A stretch of 64,000 bases of DNA from a virus: positions 126,217 through 190,216 of IMG/VR virus record IMGVR_UViG_3300046517_002960. One strand, written 5' to 3'. The notes beneath the pieces were generated by a model. The model was given only the letters and a program-made list of their open reading frames with translations, was not told the DNA's origin and did not search any database. A program made the translations under genes and the position numbers. Positions within the stretch are counted from its first letter, which is position 1. Each line of letters starts with the position of its first letter. This document shows positions 23,816-33,820 of the stretch, in pieces.

Positions 23816-23985
23816 CGACCGTCAGCCAAGGCGAGAGCCGCGGCAGGCGAATGTCACCGACATTTGAGAACTCCATAGCGTGAGCACCACGACGGGGGCG
23901 CCATCCCCCGTCACCTGGTGCGGTCCCCAGGCGCGATCAGCGGGCGAGTCGCCCCCGTGCCATGGCACCGCACCAATCCGTGCTG

Positions 23986-26276: not shown

Positions 26277-26277
26277 C

Positions 26278-26623
26278 GAGCCGGCCGGACGGCCGCGGTA
26301 CCTGCACGTCAGGTACTGAGGAAAGTCCGGGCTCCAACGGGCAGGACGGTTGTTAACGGCAACCCGGGGCAACCCGCGGGAAAGCGTCACAGAAAGCAGA
26401 CCGCCCCGGCGACGGGGTAAGGGTGAAACGGCGGTGTAAGAGACCACCAGCGGACCGGGTGACCGGCCCGGCTCGGCAAGCCCCGTCCGGAGCAAGATCG
26501 CAAGGCCGAGGGCGGCCCGCCCGCTGACGCCTGGTGGATCGCACGAGCTCGCCGGCGACGGCAGGCCTAGATGGATGGCCGTCCCCCTGCGGCGGGGACA
26601 GAACCCGGCTTACAGGCCGGCTC
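26278..26623 (+). ncRNA. rnpB: RNase P RNA, bacterial type A
   Basis: GAGGAAAGTCCGGGCTCC (CR-I), ACAGAAA, GGGTGAAACGGCGGTGTAAGAGACCACC, ACAGAACCCGGCTTA (CR-V); P1 GAGCCGGCC/GGCCGGCTC. Confidence 0.97.
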
Positions 26624-26689
26624 AATGCCCGCTCCCCGGAGCGGATGTGCGGCGTAAGACCCGGCCGGCCGCGCGGCCCGGGCAGTCAT

Positions 26690-27653: not shown

Positions 27654-27732
27654 CGGCCCGTAGTTCAGCCTGGCTTAGAACGGCACCCTTATGAAGTGTG
27701 CGTCAGGGGTTCAAATCCCCTCGGGCCCACCA
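27654..27732 (+). tRNA. tRNA-Ile(TAT), C1:C72 mismatch
   Basis: Loop CTTATGA; encoded CCA. Confidence 0.75.
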
Positions 27733-27733
27733 T

Positions 27734-28309
27734 TCAGGAAGCACCGGCTAGCGGCACCTGCCGGGCGTTCCAGGCGCTGACGGCGGACAGCGTGAACCCG
27801 TCCGTGATCTCCCCGGCAGCGATCATCGCGGTGAGCCCGGAAAAGGTCAGCCACCGGATCTCGGTGATCTCCTCGGTGTCGGCCGGCACGGCCTGCATGG
27901 CCGCGGCACCTACCCGGGCCGCGTACATGTGCACCGCGGTCCCGAGGTGCGCGGAGTCCGGATGGACGCAGCCCAGGAATACCAGGTCCAGGGCCGCGGC
28001 GCCGATCTCCTCGATCAGCTCGGCGCGGGCGGTGGTCTCAGGGCAGGGGCCGTGCGCGTAGCCGCGGGGGAAGCCCCATTCCCATTCCTGGGTGGCGTAA
28101 CGCCAGGTCCGGACCAGGGCGGTATGCTCGCCGGTCACCGGCATGACGACCACGCCGGGATGGCCGCTCCCGGAGATGATGCGGTAGTAGCGGCCCTGCC
28201 GTCCGGAGGAGAACCGGACGTGATCATCAAATACGGTGACGAACCGGTTCCGGTAGACGATCTCCTCGGCGATTCTCTCGATCGGCGGCGCGCTGGCAGG
28301 TGCAGTCAT
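27734..28309 (-). CDS. NUDIX hydrolase (ADP-ribose pyrophosphatase-like)
   Basis: GFPRGY..ETTARAELIEEIG Nudix box; RTWRYA. Confidence 0.9.
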   Translation of the reverse strand: MTAPASAPPIERIAEEIVYRNRFVTVFDDHVRFSSGRQGRYYRIISGSGHPGVVVMPVTGEHTALVRTWRYATQEWEWGFPRGYAHGPCPETTARAELIEEIGAAALDLVFLGCVHPDSAHLGTAVHMYAARVGAAAMQAVPADTEEITEIRWLTFSGLTAMIAAGEITDGFTLSAVSAWNARQVPLAGAS

Positions 28310-31046: not shown

Positions 31047-31120
31047 GACCCCATAGCTCAGCGGATAGAGCACCGCCCTCCGGAGGCGGGTTGTCGCAGG
31101 TTCGAATCCTGCTGGGGCCA
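31047..31120 (+). tRNA. tRNA-Arg(CCG)
   Basis: CCGCC-CTCCGGA-GGCGG. Confidence 0.9.
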
Positions 31121-31179
31121 CTGGCTGGCAGGTGAGCAGGCTGACACCGCCTTCGGGCTCAGCCCCCTGCCGGCCGTAC

Positions 31180-31255
31180 CGCCGAGTGACCGAGCTGGCT
31201 AGGTGAACGCCTGCAAAGCGTTTTGACACGGGTTCAAGTCCCGTCTCGGCGTCCA
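31180..31255 (+). tRNA. tRNA-Cys(GCA)
   Basis: AACGC-CTGCAAA-GCGTT; U73; encoded CCA. Confidence 0.9.
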
Positions 31256-31256
31256 C

Positions 31257-31330
31257 GACCCTGTAGCTCAGCCGGATAGAGCAGGCGCCCCCTAAGCGCT
31301 ATGTCGCGGGTTCGAATCCCCCCAGGGCCA
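31257..31330 (+). tRNA. tRNA-Arg(CCT)
   Basis: GGCGC-CCCCTAA-GCGCT. Confidence 0.85.
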
Positions 31331-31344
31331 CGTATGATGAGGAC

Positions 31345-31413
31345 GGCACGGGCCGGAGGCAGTCGGTTATCTTCGAACAAGTCAAGCCGGTTACCGCACA
31401 CATGCCCGCTGCC
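31345..31413 (+). ncRNA. Y-RNA-like unit 1 (minimal)
   Basis: CGGGCCGGA..CGGTTATC..CCGGT..ACATGCCCG; bulged C in the closing stem. Confidence 0.75.
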
Positions 31414-31445
31414 CTTCCCCTGGTGCTCACGCTATGAAAGAACGC

Positions 31446-31558
31446 GAGACGGGCCGGAAGGAAATCGGTTACCGGAAAACGGGACTCACACTCCTGCAGA
31501 GGGATTCGAAGCCCTCACCCCCGCAAGGGGAACCGGTTCCCGGCAACACGCCCGTCTC
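31446..31558 (+). ncRNA. Y-RNA-like unit 2
   Basis: Same conserved core; T-arm-like GAGGG-ATTCGAAG-CCCTC. Confidence 0.75.
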
Positions 31559-31560
31559 TC

Positions 31561-31710
31561 AGCTTGAGCCCGGCGGGCCGGACGTGATGCCGGTTATCGA
31601 AGGTTCGACTCCTCCAGGCCCCACTCTCACGGGGCCTCCCGTTCGGCGGGATCCCTCCCTGACACGGAGGGAAGCCCGGTGTCCACTCACATGCCCGCCG
31701 GCCTCAAGCT
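31561..31710 (+). ncRNA. Y-RNA-like unit 3
   Basis: Same core; T-loop-like TTCGACT plus three hairpins. Confidence 0.75.
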
Positions 31711-31718
31711 GCAAGCCC

Positions 31719-31801
31719 CTGGCGGGCCGGATGAGGGTCGGTTATCACCAGACTCCTAATCTGGCGCGATAGCGCTCCGGTCCCCGTAACACGCCCGCCA
31801 G
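31719..31801 (+). ncRNA. Y-RNA-like unit 4
   Basis: Same core; short variable domain. Confidence 0.75.
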
Positions 31802-31817
31802 CCACAATTTCATAGAC

Positions 31818-31957
31818 CTGACGGGCCGGACGAGAATCGGTTACCGCCTTGGGAGCGCGTGGTTGCAGGTTCGAGTCCTGTCAGCCCTCCGGAAGGGGGG
31901 CTGTAGCTCAATTGGCAGAGCGCGTAAACGGCCGGTTCACAAGCACACGCCCGTCAG
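31818..31957 (+). ncRNA. yrlA: Y-RNA unit 5, YrlA-type with permuted tRNA domain
   Basis: T arm GCAGG-TTCGAGT-CCTGT, acceptor closed by GGAA loop, D arm GCTC-AATTGGCA-GAGC inside the Ro-binding core. Confidence 0.85.
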
Positions 31958-31963
31958 CTAACT

Positions 31964-32078
31964 GAAGACAAGCCCCCGCGGGCCGGAAGCGGAGCCGGTT
32001 ATCGCCAACCATCCAACACTGGTACCGCGGCCACGTGCCGCACCGGTTCCCGTCAACATGCCCGCGGGGCTTGCCTTC
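31964..32078 (+). ncRNA. Y-RNA-like unit 6
   Basis: Same core with extended closing stem; ends just before the rsr SD. Confidence 0.75.
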
Positions 32079-32103
32079 ACAGATCAGGAGGAGGAACACG
32101 ATC

Positions 32104-33756
32104 ATGACCAACGACGCGCTGACGCAGATCCGGACCCGGGGCCGGGCCACGCCGCAGTCCGAGCAGGCCCACCCGGCGCAGATCCGGAACGACGCAGGCG
32201 GCTGGGCGTTCCAGGCTTCCGACGAGACCCGGGTGCACCGGTTCCTGACCATCGGCACCACGGGCGGCACCTTCTACACCGACGAGCGCAAGGCGACGCG
32301 GGACAACGGCGAGCTGATCATCGAGTTCGCCCGGGCCAACGCGTCCCGGCTGGTCCAGATGGCCACTGAGGTGTCCGTCGCGGGCCGCGCGCCGCGCAAC
32401 CAGCAGGCGATCCTGGCCCTGATGGCCGCCATGGCCCTGGGGGACACTGAGGGCCGGCAGGCCGCGGAGCGTGCCTTCACCGACGTCGTGCGGACCGGCA
32501 CGCACCTGTTCACGGCGGCCAGGTACGCCGAGCAGTTCCGCGGCTGGGGCCGTATCGCCCGGCGCGCGTTCGCCCGGTGGTACCTGGACAAGGACGCCGA
32601 GCCGCTGTCCTACCAGCTGGTCAAGTACCGGCAGCGGGACGGCTGGACGCACCGTGACGTGCTCCGTTCCGCGCACTCCACCAGCGGCTGCGACGCCGCC
32701 CACGCGCAGCTGTTCGACTGGCTGTGCGGCCGGGAGGCGGACGGCGAGCGGCCGAAGTGGATCGCCGCGTACGAGCGCGCCCGGGAGATCGAGCGCGGCT
32801 CCGAGCCGGCCGGCGCCAGGACGGCTGCCTACGTGCGCCTCATCGAGGAGTACCCGGGCATCCCGTGGGAGGCGCTGCCGGACGAGGCCACCTCGCAGGC
32901 AGACGTCATGCGGGCGCTGATCGAGGCCGGCATGCCGGTCACGGCGCTGATCCGGAACCTGCCGAAGCTGACCCGGCTCGGCGTGATCGCCCCGATGAGC
33001 ACGCACCTGCGGCTCGTCACGGAGCGGCTGACCAACGCTGAGCTGCTGCGCAAGGGCCGGGTCCACCCGGTTTCCCTGATGGTCGCAGCCAAGGTGTACG
33101 CCTCCGGCCGGTCCGAGCCGCGCCCGAACAGGCCGGTAGTCACGTGGACCCCGGTGCCGCAGGTCTCCGACGCGCTGACCGGCGCGTTCTACGCCGCCTT
33201 CCCGGCGGTGGAGCCGGCCGGCAAGAGGACCATGGTCAACCTGGACATCTCGGGTTCCATGACCAGCTCGGCCGCGGGCTACTGCGTCTCGGCGCGGGAG
33301 GTCGTGGCGGGCATGGCCCTGGTGACCATGAACACCGAGCCGGCCTGGGGCGTGTACGGCTTCAGCACCCAGTTCATGCCGCTGCAGCTGTCCCCGGGCA
33401 TGCGGCTGGATGAGGCGATGCGGTACATGTCGCGACTGCCGTACGGCGGCACCGACGCCTCGCTGCCGATGCAGTGGGCGGCCCAGACCCGTACCGAGGT
33501 GGATGTCTTCCAGATCTCCACCGACTACGAGACCTGGGCGGGCTCCATGCACCCGCACGAGGCGCTGGAGAACTACCGCCAGAAGATGGGCATCAACGCC
33601 CGGATGCAGATGATCGCGGTCGCCCCGAACGAGTACTCGTTCTGGCCGCACTCCGCTCCGGGGTCCATCGCTGCCGACCTGGGCGTCCTGGACGTCAGCG
33701 GTTTCGACACCGACGTCCCGGTGCTCCTGGCCAACCACGCCCGGGGCGACATCTGA
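32104..33756 (+). CDS. rsr: Ro60 / TROVE-domain RNA-binding protein with vWA domain
   Basis: RNDAGGWAF..RFLTIGTTGGTFY; KYRQRDGWTHRDVLR; NLDISGSM (MIDAS); TDASLPM; TDYETWAG. Confidence 0.95.
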   Translation: MTNDALTQIRTRGRATPQSEQAHPAQIRNDAGGWAFQASDETRVHRFLTIGTTGGTFYTDERKATRDNGELIIEFARANASRLVQMATEVSVAGRAPRNQQAILALMAAMALGDTEGRQAAERAFTDVVRTGTHLFTAARYAEQFRGWGRIARRAFARWYLDKDAEPLSYQLVKYRQRDGWTHRDVLRSAHSTSGCDAAHAQLFDWLCGREADGERPKWIAAYERAREIERGSEPAGARTAAYVRLIEEYPGIPWEALPDEATSQADVMRALIEAGMPVTALIRNLPKLTRLGVIAPMSTHLRLVTERLTNAELLRKGRVHPVSLMVAAKVYASGRSEPRPNRPVVTWTPVPQVSDALTGAFYAAFPAVEPAGKRTMVNLDISGSMTSSAAGYCVSAREVVAGMALVTMNTEPAWGVYGFSTQFMPLQLSPGMRLDEAMRYMSRLPYGGTDASLPMQWAAQTRTEVDVFQISTDYETWAGSMHPHEALENYRQKMGINARMQMIAVAPNEYSFWPHSAPGSIAADLGVLDVSGFDTDVPVLLANHARGDI

Positions 33757-33777: not shown

Positions 33778-33820
33778 GCCCGGCCGCTATCCTGATCGCG
33801 GGATAGCGGCCGGGCCTTTC
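33778..33820 (+). terminator. Intrinsic terminator after rsr
   Basis: 15-bp stem GCCCGGCCGCTATCC/GGATAGCGGCCGGGC followed by CTTTC. Confidence 0.7.

What the first reader, a model, noticed from the sequence alone, without database searches (positions are those of the whole stretch)
31345..33756. Array of six Y-RNA-like modules with a constant Ro-binding core and six different payloads, upstream of Ro60
Six tandem units share CGGGCCGGA-N6/7-YCGGTTAYC ... CCGGT-Nn-ACAYGCCCG inside unit-specific closing stems. The variable domains range from about 20 nt to about 85 nt, with a full permuted tRNA in unit 5 (YrlA-like), a T-arm in units 2 and 3, and short unrelated inserts in units 1, 4 and 6. Established: bacterial Ro60 (Rsr) genes neighbour Y RNAs such as YrlA, which tether Ro60 to effectors such as PNPase, and some mycobacteriophages carry them. 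Six differently loaded copies suggests a modular RNA-adaptor system giving one Ro60 several partners or decoy functions.
Basis: partly seen in the sequence, partly recalled or inferred. Interest (0 to 1): 0.8.

Follow-up and report, generated by a model that had tools for sequence, protein, structure and literature searches.

The report
Six-unit Y RNA array beside phage Ro60
A 190-kb soil actinophage carries six different small Y RNAs in a row in front of its Ro60 gene, each with the same protein-docking stem but a different, mostly tRNA-derived, head; this enlarges a known RNA-protein system, and I found such large arrays to be common in phages although no paper I could search describes them.

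Summary
Confirmed. The 730 bases upstream of a full-length phage Ro60 gene (32104-33756) hold six tandem RNA modules (31345-32068, + strand). A covariance model of their shared stems finds exactly these six in the whole 190-kb genome.

The shared part is a lower helix, a bulged C and an upper helix ending in GGUUAYC. In 59 phage and 144 bacterial relatives about 95% of positions pair, and 16 of 19 pairs change on both sides.

The same core closes Mycobacterium smegmatis YrlA and YrlB, which were shown to bind Rsr (Chen 2014). I therefore read the units as Y RNAs.

The payloads differ:
- U5 is YrlA-like.
- U3 is a second, differently permuted tRNA look-alike (Val, GAC).
- U2 has a T-arm-like hairpin.
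- U4 has an anticodon-arm look-alike.
- U1 and U6 are short.

The array is not unique. All 80 actinobacterial rsr loci carry 1-4 units. Of 80 viral Ro60 loci, 25 have five or more (range 0-8), and one contig has ten.

Function as adaptors or gates is inferred, not shown. This is a new variant of a known kind. The scan has noted similar arrays beside Ro60 in other phages.

The parts
31047..31331 (+). tRNA-Arg(CCG), tRNA-Cys(GCA) and tRNA-Arg(CCT): the last three genes of the 38-tRNA island, directly upstream of the array
   Evidence: ARAGORN. The same trio precedes the Y arrays of L003, L004, L007 and L076.
31345..31412 (+). Y RNA unit 1: core stems plus a 16-nt payload holding UUCGAAC
   Evidence: R1 47.9 bits. 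The minimum-energy fold recovers the closing stem. Weak full-length match to the nematode sbRNA family RF01656, E 0.041.
31419..31436 (+). Conserved motif CGTGGTGCTCACGCTATG between U1 and U2: a candidate promoter or processing signal of unknown function
   Evidence: Invariant 13-mer in L003, L004, L006 and L007 at the matching place. There are only two exact copies in the 190-kb genome; the other is inverted at 23873-23890.
31446..31558 (+). Y RNA unit 2: payload of three hairpins (one with a 7-nt anticodon-like loop, one T-arm-like, one small GC hairpin)
   Evidence: R1 71.5 bits; fold z -3.1. The same architecture with canonical T arms occurs in L007_u1 and L006_u2. There was no tRNA call after circularisation.
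31570..31701 (+). Y RNA unit 3: a sealed, circularly permuted tRNA-Val(GAC) look-alike with the Ro stem at the variable-arm position
   Evidence: R1 62.6 bits. ARAGORN calls tRNA-Val(gac) in 88 of 256 circularised variants, against 0 of 12,021 shuffled. Orthologues in L003, L006, L007 and L004.
31719..31801 (+). Y RNA unit 4: payload is a 5-bp hairpin with loop CUCCUAA (like an Arg-CCU anticodon loop) plus a GCGC-GAUA-GCGC hairpin
   Evidence: R1 68.3 bits. Orthologues in L006, L004 and L007 keep the loop and show a compensatory change in the hairpin.
31818..31957 (+). Y RNA unit 5: YrlA-type, with T arm, 7-bp sealed acceptor-like stem and D arm, opened at the anticodon
   Evidence: R1 86.3 bits. 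Rfam YrlA 38.7 bits, E 7.8e-7, below the gathering score of 69. ARAGORN calls a tRNA in 109 of 256 circularised variants, with a junction-dependent anticodon.
31975..32068 (+). Y RNA unit 6: payload of two hairpins, with no tRNA signature
   Evidence: R1 52.8 bits; fold z -3.5.
32086..32094 (+). Ribosome-binding site AGGAGGAGG of Ro60
   Evidence: Read from the sequence; it lies 9 nt before the ATG.
32104..33756 (+). Ro60/Rsr orthologue, 550 aa, with TROVE ring plus vWA domain and a DxSxS motif
   Evidence: Pfam PF05731 and PF25045. PDB 2nvo E 2.5e-94 and 1yvp E 5e-89. D381, S383 and S385 are invariant in 12 phage Ro60s. GC3 is 0.95.
33778..33815 (+). 17-bp hairpin after the Ro60 stop codon: the likely end of the transcription unit
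   Evidence: Fold -44.5 kcal/mol, z -4.5. The simple terminator scan did not call it, because the U tract is weak.

Best explanation
The array is six Y RNA genes co-oriented with, and probably co-transcribed with, the phage's Ro60 gene. Each RNA has two modules. The constant module is formed by its 5' and 3' ends: a 9-12 bp lower helix ending in GGGC/GCCC, a bulged C, a G-Y pair, a small asymmetric loop (GA opposite ...ACA), a roughly 9-bp upper helix, and then UUAYC. This is the Ro60-docking site. The variable module projects from it and is built mostly from tRNA parts. U5 and U3 are whole tRNA mimics opened at different places. U2 and U4 carry single tRNA-like arms. U1 and U6 carry almost nothing. 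I infer the following steps. The precursor is cut in the short, less GC-rich spacers (11-33 nt). Ro60 binds and stabilises each RNA. The different heads then either tether the one Ro60 ring to different partners (tRNA-binding enzymes, or PNPase as in RYPER) or simply gate its cavity. During infection this would tune quality control or decay of structured RNAs such as the phage's 38 tRNAs. Shown here: the six units, their common covarying structure, their linkage to Ro60 across 160 loci, and their homology to experimentally Rsr-bound RNAs. Inferred: transcription, processing, Ro60 binding of each unit, and every partner.
For: 1. R1 finds exactly six units in the window and in the whole genome, all in the array.
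2. The core structure is kept by compensatory change. In 59 phage units 95.5% of cells pair, against 77% when shuffled and 36-42% when slid, and 16 of 19 pairs change on both sides. In 144 bacterial units that were not used to build the model the figure is 95.7%.
3. Linkage to Ro60 is strong. There are 193 hits in 80 of 80 actinobacterial rsr loci and 276 hits in 80 viral Ro60 loci, nearly all directly upstream on the same strand.
4. The published ends of M. smegmatis YrlA (the T7 template primers in PMC4201824) match the two ends of R1 hits in three loci, L151, L178 and L265. The YrlB probe shows the same GGTTATC-plus-T-arm layout as L151 unit 2. Both RNAs co-precipitated with Rsr and were processed from one precursor.
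5. U5 matches the YrlA tRNA-like domain.
6. Units match the nematode sbRNA family, which comprises Y RNA homologues (PMC4450293), over its full length, though below threshold.
7. Payload types recur in related phages in shuffled order, with compensatory changes.
8. Ro60 is full length with its DxSxS motif intact.
9. The published model of Y RNAs is two modules, Ro60-binding and effector-binding (10.1101/312249).
Against: There are no expression, processing or binding data for this uncultured phage. No unit reaches an Rfam gathering score: YrlA scores 38.7 against 69, and sbRNA about 22 against 38. The metazoan Y_RNA family gave no hit at E<=10. The covariation counts come from alignments fitted to the model, although the slid-partner control argues against an artefact. 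The simple sigma-70 consensus scan found no promoter-like site upstream of the array; its only call in the region (32076-32105) lies downstream of it. Nothing identifies a partner for any payload. U1 and U6 have payloads so small that they may only gate Ro60 or be decaying copies.
Confidence: 0.85

Rival explanations
1. The units act chiefly in cis or as sponges. On this reading the array is the structured leader of the Ro60 mRNA. Ro60 binds its own leader, or the released stems, to autoregulate its synthesis and to gate its RNA-binding cavity. The varied payloads would have no partners of their own.
For: U6 ends 35 nt before the Ro60 start codon, and the units are packed 11-33 nt apart on the Ro60 strand. 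Gating of the Ro60 cavity by Y RNA is an established function (PMC4201824; 10.1101/312249). U1 and U6 have minimal payloads.
Against: Payload types are conserved across related phages with compensatory changes while their order shuffles. Two payloads keep complete tRNA folds. In M. smegmatis the upstream RNAs are released from the precursor.
Confidence: 0.2
2. The payloads are decoys or sensors. They would be tRNA-part mimics (Val and Arg-like anticodon arms, T arms, sealed acceptor stems) displayed on Ro60 to soak up or report host tRNA-targeting nucleases or tRNA-modifying enzymes during infection.
For: U3 keeps an intact anticodon arm: GAC in the window and UAC in L003. The U4 loop CUCCUAA/CUUCUAA is conserved in four phages. 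The array sits at the end of a 38-tRNA island that also holds an RNase P RNA. Rsr and Y RNAs are encoded in an operon with the RtcB RNA ligase that responds to damaged tRNAs in Salmonella (PMC7790460 abstract; 10.1101/312249).
Against: This is purely inferential. No nuclease, ligase or tRNA-repair gene was found next to the array: among the neighbouring ORFs I scanned, the only Pfam matches were a NUDIX domain, a sugar-nucleotide epimerase/dehydratase and a sub-threshold glycosyltransferase hit. The anticodon-like loops may be coincidental 7-nt loops.
Confidence: 0.12
3. The conserved stems are processing or stability cassettes for tRNA-like RNAs, serving as RNase substrates or clamps, and have nothing to do with Ro60 binding. 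On this reading the adjacency to Ro60 is hitch-hiking.
For: The units lie in a tRNA operon, and some relatives enclose complete tRNAs in native order (L084_u6 and L075_u4).
Against: Every one of 80 bacterial rsr loci has the units directly upstream on the same strand, although these loci were found by the protein alone. The invariant bases match the motif contacted by Ro60 in Y RNAs. M. smegmatis members were co-precipitated with Rsr. The 38 ordinary tRNAs of the island lack such stems.
Confidence: 0.04

Closest known systems
Mycobacterium smegmatis YrlA and YrlB (Chen et al. 2014, PMC4201824)
   Same: They share the same core. The published YrlA ends match the ends of R1 hits in three loci. 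They are encoded directly upstream of rsr on the same strand. YrlA has a permuted tRNA domain with a 7-bp acceptor-like stem, and YrlB has only a T arm. Both are Rsr-bound and processed from one precursor.
   Different: There are two RNAs there and six here. The window adds payload types that paper does not describe: a tRNA mimic with its own anticodon arm (U3), an anticodon-arm-only unit (U4), and near-empty units (U1, U6). That paper states that only the 5' strand of the Ro-binding helix is recognisable, whereas here both strands are conserved and covary.
Salmonella YrlA, Rfam RF02553, crystal structure 6CU1 (Wang et al. 2018, 10.1101/312249)
   Same: It has a two-module design, and its tRNA-like effector module has the T arm 5' of the D arm. 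U5 aligns to model positions 23-87.
   Different: U5 scores 38.7 bits against a gathering score of 69. The Ro-binding stem of the Rfam model does not align. In Salmonella the RNAs lie 3' of rsr in an RtcB operon.
Deinococcus radiodurans Yrn1/Yrn2 and the Rsr-Y RNA-PNPase machine (RYPER)
   Same: Several small RNAs are encoded upstream of rsr. The metazoan-like helix keeps both strands. Y RNA tethers Ro60 to an effector.
   Different: There is no sequence match. A PNPase link is not tested here, and this is a phage rather than a cell.
Thermus phage phiLo Ro60 with Yrl1 and Yrl2 (PMC12135203)
   Same: It is a phage-encoded Ro60 with Y-like RNAs upstream, shown to bind in vitro and to form complexes with host PNPase.
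   Different: It has two RNAs with a CGAA-bulge design, against six here with a different core and tRNA-derived heads.
Metazoan Y RNAs and nematode stem-bulge RNAs (Rfam RF00019, RF01656)
   Same: The stem is formed by the two ends, with a bulged C after GGNC, an upper helix and then GGUUAUC. There are full-length sub-threshold alignments to RF01656.
   Different: All scores are below the gathering scores, and RF00019 gave no hit. There is no oligo-U tail, and the genes are arranged as an operon.

Membership tests
Bacterial/phage Y RNAs (YrlA/YrlB kind, Chen 2014) | Encoded within about 4 kb of a Ro60 orthologue, on the same strand | tested here: met
   The units lie 35-760 nt upstream of Ro60 on the + strand.
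Bacterial/phage Y RNAs (YrlA/YrlB kind, Chen 2014) | 5' Ro60-recognition motif GNCGAAN0-1G, related to metazoan GGUCCGA | tested here: inconclusive
   All six units have GGGCCGGA, so GCCGGA stands in place of GNCGAA. Related units in L057, L075, L076 and L084 have GGCCGAAG, which fits the published motif.
Bacterial/phage Y RNAs (YrlA/YrlB kind, Chen 2014) | Homology to RNAs shown to bind Rsr | tested here: met
   The 5' and 3' end sequences of M. smegmatis YrlA printed in PMC4201824 match the two ends of R1 hits in three loci, L151, L178 and L265.
Bacterial/phage Y RNAs (YrlA/YrlB kind, Chen 2014) | Bound and stabilised by Ro60/Rsr | not testable with these tools
   This needs immunoprecipitation or a gel-shift assay.
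YrlA subfamily (Rfam RF02553) | tRNA-like domain with the T arm 5' of a sealed acceptor-like stem and a D arm | tested here: met
   This holds for U5 only: cmscan alignment at E 7.8e-7 and ARAGORN calls in 109 of 256 circularised variants. U1, U2, U4 and U6 lack the domain, and U3 has a different permutation.
YrlA subfamily (Rfam RF02553) | Reaches the Rfam gathering score (69 bits) | tested here: not met
   U5 scores 38.7 bits. No actinophage locus I tested reached it either.
Metazoan Y RNA / nematode sbRNA | Terminal stem with a bulged C and a conserved helix, supported by covariation | tested here: met
   19-pair core, about 95% paired, 16 pairs with changes on both sides, and an unpaired invariant C after GGGC.
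Metazoan Y RNA / nematode sbRNA | Match to the family models at the curated threshold | tested here: not met
   RF01656 scores 22.9, 21.6 and 26.4 bits against a gathering score of 38. RF00019 is not listed at E<=10.
tRNA | Cloverleaf in native 5'-to-3' order with free acceptor ends | tested here: not met
   ARAGORN and Rfam call no tRNA inside 31345-32068. U3 and U5 are called only after removing the Ro stem and circularising.

The most novel reading that the evidence does not exclude
Large actinophages have expanded the Ro60/Y RNA system into a panel of five to ten docking-stem RNAs whose heads imitate different parts or whole bodies of particular tRNAs (for example Val-GAC/UAC and an Arg-CCU anticodon arm). 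Ro60 would display these as decoys, sensors or recruiters aimed at host tRNA-cleaving defences or tRNA-processing enzymes, working together with the phage's own tRNA set and RNase P RNA.
Probability: 0.15. Interest if true: 0.85.

Novelty: new variant of a known kind. Interest (0 to 1): 0.55.

Why it matters
What Y RNAs do in bacteria and phages is a long-standing open question, and their effector partners are mostly unknown. This locus, and the roughly 160 related loci gathered here, give three things.

1. A single covariance model recognises the Ro60-docking stem of actinobacterial and actinophage Y RNAs whatever the payload. Rfam's YrlA model reached its threshold in none of the loci I tested.
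2. It yields a catalogue of payload classes that are conserved across phages. These include tRNA mimics opened at the anticodon, at the variable arm or at the acceptor end.
3. Phage loci carry systematically larger arrays than bacterial ones.

Together these make the adaptor hypothesis directly testable: one protein, six natural RNAs with the same handle, and different heads.

Tried and rejected
- **Rfam at gathering thresholds.** It finds only tRNAs and RNase P RNA in the window. It gives no YrlA call in six cultured-phage loci or seven viral contigs.
- **BLASTN of the array against 50,697 phage records.** It matched only tRNA-like pieces of U5, so plain sequence search does not find the family.
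- **Sigma-70 promoter and terminator scans.** These gave nothing usable for the array. The conserved motif at 31419-31436 is not a general promoter motif of this phage, because there are only two copies.
- **Circular-permutation test on U2.** It gave no tRNA call (0 of 136 variants), so I do not call U2 a full tRNA mimic.
- **RNAalifold on the U3-type set.** It mis-paired the 5' strand of the Ro stem with the T arm, so I did not use it as evidence.
- **Reviews that might state how many Y RNAs are known per locus.** PMC10870794, PMC6047535 and PMC6542706 are not held, and the supplementary tables of Chen 2014 are not held. I therefore cannot exclude that multi-unit phage arrays are listed there.
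- **ORFs overlapping the array (31301-31567, 31434-31772).** They fail the GC3 test that every real gene of this phage passes, so I rejected a coding reading.
- **Protein-complex prediction.** I did not use it, because the question concerns RNA-protein binding.
Full report
**Setting.** The window is the last 64 kb of a 190,216-bp IMG/VR virus record. It has 71% G+C, and earlier notes of this scan describe it as an uncultured soil actinophage. Between 23.7 and 34.3 kb lies a + strand island with almost no protein genes. It holds:
- 38 tRNA genes;
- a bacterial class A RNase P RNA (261 bits);
- one NUDIX ORF on the other strand;
- the array in question;
- a 550-aa ORF at 32104-33756.

That ORF is a Ro60 orthologue. 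It has TROVE and Ro60-type vWA domains. It matches D. radiodurans Rsr at E 2.5e-94 and Xenopus Ro60 at E 5e-89. Its DxSxS motif is invariant among 12 phage relatives. A 17-bp hairpin follows the stop codon.

**The observation.** All six units are present as described. Each begins with a unit-specific strand, then has CGGGCCGGA, 5-7 variable bases, YCGGTTAYC and a payload of 16-87 nt. It then has CCGGT, a variable stretch, ACAYGCCCG and the complement of the first strand. The 5' pattern occurs four times in the window against none in 100 shuffles; the other two units have a slightly longer spacing.

I built a covariance model (R1) from 26 such units of the window and related contigs, with a hand-drawn structure of 19 pairs. 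The structure is a 9-bp lower helix, one G-Y pair after a bulged C, and a 9-bp upper helix. R1 finds exactly six matches in the window (47.9-86.3 bits) and nothing else at E<=1 on either strand. It also finds exactly six in the whole 190-kb genome. Single-sequence folds recover the closing and upper helices for most units, with z-scores near -3. The spacers are 11-33 nt long and less G+C-rich than the units.

**Is the structure real?**
- On 59 units from viral contigs, 95.5% of cells form standard pairs. The figure is 77% when partners are shuffled and 36-42% when partners are slid by 1-3 columns. Of the 19 pairs, 16 show changes on both sides.
- On 144 units from bacterial loci, none of which was used to build the model, the figures are 95.7% and again 16 of 19.
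- These alignments are fitted to the model, which favours it. The size of the gap to the slid controls, and the many pair types per column, make an artefact unlikely.

**Link to Ro60.**
- I found relatives by the Ro60 protein alone. In 80 actinobacterial loci (Nocardia, Mycobacterium, Propionibacteriaceae and others), R1 gives 193 matches at E<=0.01. Every locus has at least one, and nearly all lie directly upstream of rsr on its strand.
- In 80 viral loci it gives 276 matches, all but one upstream and co-oriented.
- Cultured phages have unannotated units too. Mycobacteriophage Rizal has three, Sparky two, Gordonia phage Sixama about six and Rhodococcus phage Trina eight.

**Are they Y RNAs?** The strongest argument is homology to RNAs that were shown to bind the protein. 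Chen et al. [quoted passage not shown]
- The primer sequences that define the two ends of YrlA in that paper occur at the 5' and 3' ends of R1 matches in three loci: two bacterial mycobacterial loci (L151, L178) and one viral contig (L265).
- The YrlB probe shows the same GGTTATC-then-T-arm layout as the second unit of L151.
- U5 aligns to the tRNA-like domain of Rfam YrlA at E 7.8e-7, although at 38.7 bits it is far below the gathering score of 69.
- U1, U2 and a unit of L084 align over the full length of the nematode stem-bulge RNA family at E 0.04-0.09. That family is regarded as homologous to vertebrate Y RNAs (PMC4450293).
- From memory only, and so a lead rather than a test: the order GGNCC-GA, upper helix, GGUUAUC is also that of human Y1 and Y4.
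- Chen et al. wrote that only the 5' strand of the Ro-binding helix is recognisable in M. smegmatis. The comparative data here show that both strands are conserved and covary.

**The payloads.** None of the six resembles another. To test tRNA likeness I removed the Ro stem, joined the payload ends in 256 trimmed variants and ran ARAGORN in circular mode. Shuffled payloads gave 0 calls in 12,021 variants.
- **U5 and other YrlA-type units** are called as tRNA with an anticodon that depends on the junction. This is as expected if the tRNA is opened at the anticodon loop.
- **U3** is called tRNA-Val(GAC) in 88 of 256 variants, and its orthologue L003_u1 is called tRNA-Val(UAC) in 84 of 256. Both have a fixed anticodon arm, a T arm, a sealed 7-bp acceptor-like stem and a weak D arm, and the Ro stem emerges where the variable arm would be. 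This layout is rare: 4 of 92 phage units and 1 of 144 bacterial units.
- **Two relatives** (L084_u6, L075_u4) enclose whole tRNAs in native order.
- **U2** gave no tRNA call. It shares a three-hairpin architecture with units of L007, L004, L006 and L076, whose middle hairpin is a canonical T arm.
- **U4** has a 5-bp hairpin with loop CUCCUAA, conserved (CUUCUAA in one case) in four phages with a compensatory change in the stem, plus a GCGC-tetraloop hairpin.
- **U1 and U6** have short payloads without tRNA signatures.

Across the closest relatives (L003, L004, L006, L007) the same payload types recur in a different order. That argues for selection on each type rather than recent duplication.

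**How unusual is six?**

| Units per locus | 0 | 1 | 2 | 3 | 4 | 5 | 6 | 7 | 8 |
|---|---|---|---|---|---|---|---|---|---|
| Bacterial rsr loci (n = 80) | 0 | 7 | 42 | 22 | 9 | 0 | 0 | 0 | 0 |
| Viral Ro60 loci (n = 80) | 6 | 4 | 14 | 19 | 12 | 14 | 9 | 1 | 1 |

These are my tallies within 2.5 kb upstream. One further contig (L084) has ten units. Some viral loci are near-duplicates, and the flanks truncate long arrays, so these are rough figures. The window's array is therefore typical of a phage-side expansion, not a singular event.

In the papers I could search, I found phage Ro60 described with one YrlA (mycobacteriophages) or two Y-like RNAs (Thermus phage phiLo), and bacteria with at least two. 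I found no description of arrays of five to ten. The main reviews and the supplementary tables of Chen 2014 were not available to me. Earlier notes of this scan report similar constant-handle arrays beside Ro60-like genes in unrelated phages. I did not test those.

**Mechanism.** The best-supported reading is the published two-module model, applied six times: one docking stem for Ro60 and six different heads.
- Transcription may come from read-through of the tRNA island, or from a start near the conserved motif CGTGGTGCTCACGCTATG at 31419-31436. That motif precedes or interrupts the arrays of four relatives. Its only other copy in the genome is inverted at the far end of the tRNA island. Its role is unknown.
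- Release from a precursor is inferred from M. smegmatis.
- U3 and U5 both contain a T arm stacked on a 7-bp acceptor-like stem, the feature that Chen et al. consider a major determinant of the RNase P cleavage they observed for M. smegmatis YrlA. The phage encodes its own RNase P RNA, so cleavage of these two units is a reasonable prediction.
- Whether the heads recruit different partners, merely gate Ro60, or act as tRNA decoys cannot be decided from sequence.

**Verdict.** This is a new variant of a known kind. It offers a useful family-wide model and a clear experimental handle, but no new principle is demonstrated.

Noticed in passing
window 26277-26628 (+): A complete bacterial class A RNase P RNA (261 bits) lies between tRNA-Thr and tRNA-Gly inside the phage tRNA island. 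BLASTN against 50,697 phage records found only six weak matches (four metagenome 'Bacteriophage sp.' records and two records of an Acinetobacter phage) and no cultured actinophage. A keyword search for phage-encoded RNase P RNA returned nothing relevant.
   Followed up: partly
window 23873-23890 and 31419-31436: An 18-nt inverted pair (CATAGCGTGAGCACCACG / CGTGGTGCTCACGCTATG) brackets the 7.5-kb tRNA island. Its 13-nt core has only these two exact copies in the 190-kb genome. The same motif sits at the start of, or inside, the Y arrays of L003, L004, L006 and L007. It could be outward-facing promoters or the ends of a cassette.
   Followed up: partly
L084:774-910 (-) and L075:4921-5055 (-): These Y-type units have as payload a complete tRNA in native order, so the Ro stem extends the acceptor end. 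One has an abnormal anticodon loop (ARAGORN 'tRNA-???(cc)') and the other is tRNA-Ser(AGA).
   Followed up: partly
L084:345-1681 (-): This is a ten-unit Y array directly upstream of a Ro60 gene in a 122-kb viral contig, the largest array seen here.
   Followed up: partly
L127 (Rhodococcus phage Trina, NC_042040.1) 1150-2414; L124 (Gordonia phage Sixama) 5025-5676: Cultured phages carry unannotated Y-type units: eight upstream of Ro in Trina and four interleaved with tRNA genes downstream of Ro in Sixama. In Trina, two units overlap a feature annotated 'tRNA-OTHER' pseudogene. Sixama also has a tmRNA at L124:4504-4925.
   Followed up: partly
window 27654-27732 and 31257-31331: ARAGORN calls a tRNA-His with anticodon ATG. 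By my reading of the sequence, the tRNA-Arg(CCT) next to the array has C rather than U at position 33 of its anticodon loop. Both are unusual for functional tRNAs.
   Followed up: no
window 27734-28309 (-): A NUDIX-domain ORF (E 2.4e-8) is the only clear protein gene on the opposite strand inside the tRNA island.
   Followed up: no
L204:768-1033 (-): In Promicromonospora vindobonensis two strong Y-type units lie about 1.5 kb upstream of rsr on the opposite strand, besides one in the usual position. This is the only clear exception to co-orientation among the 80 bacterial loci.
   Followed up: no
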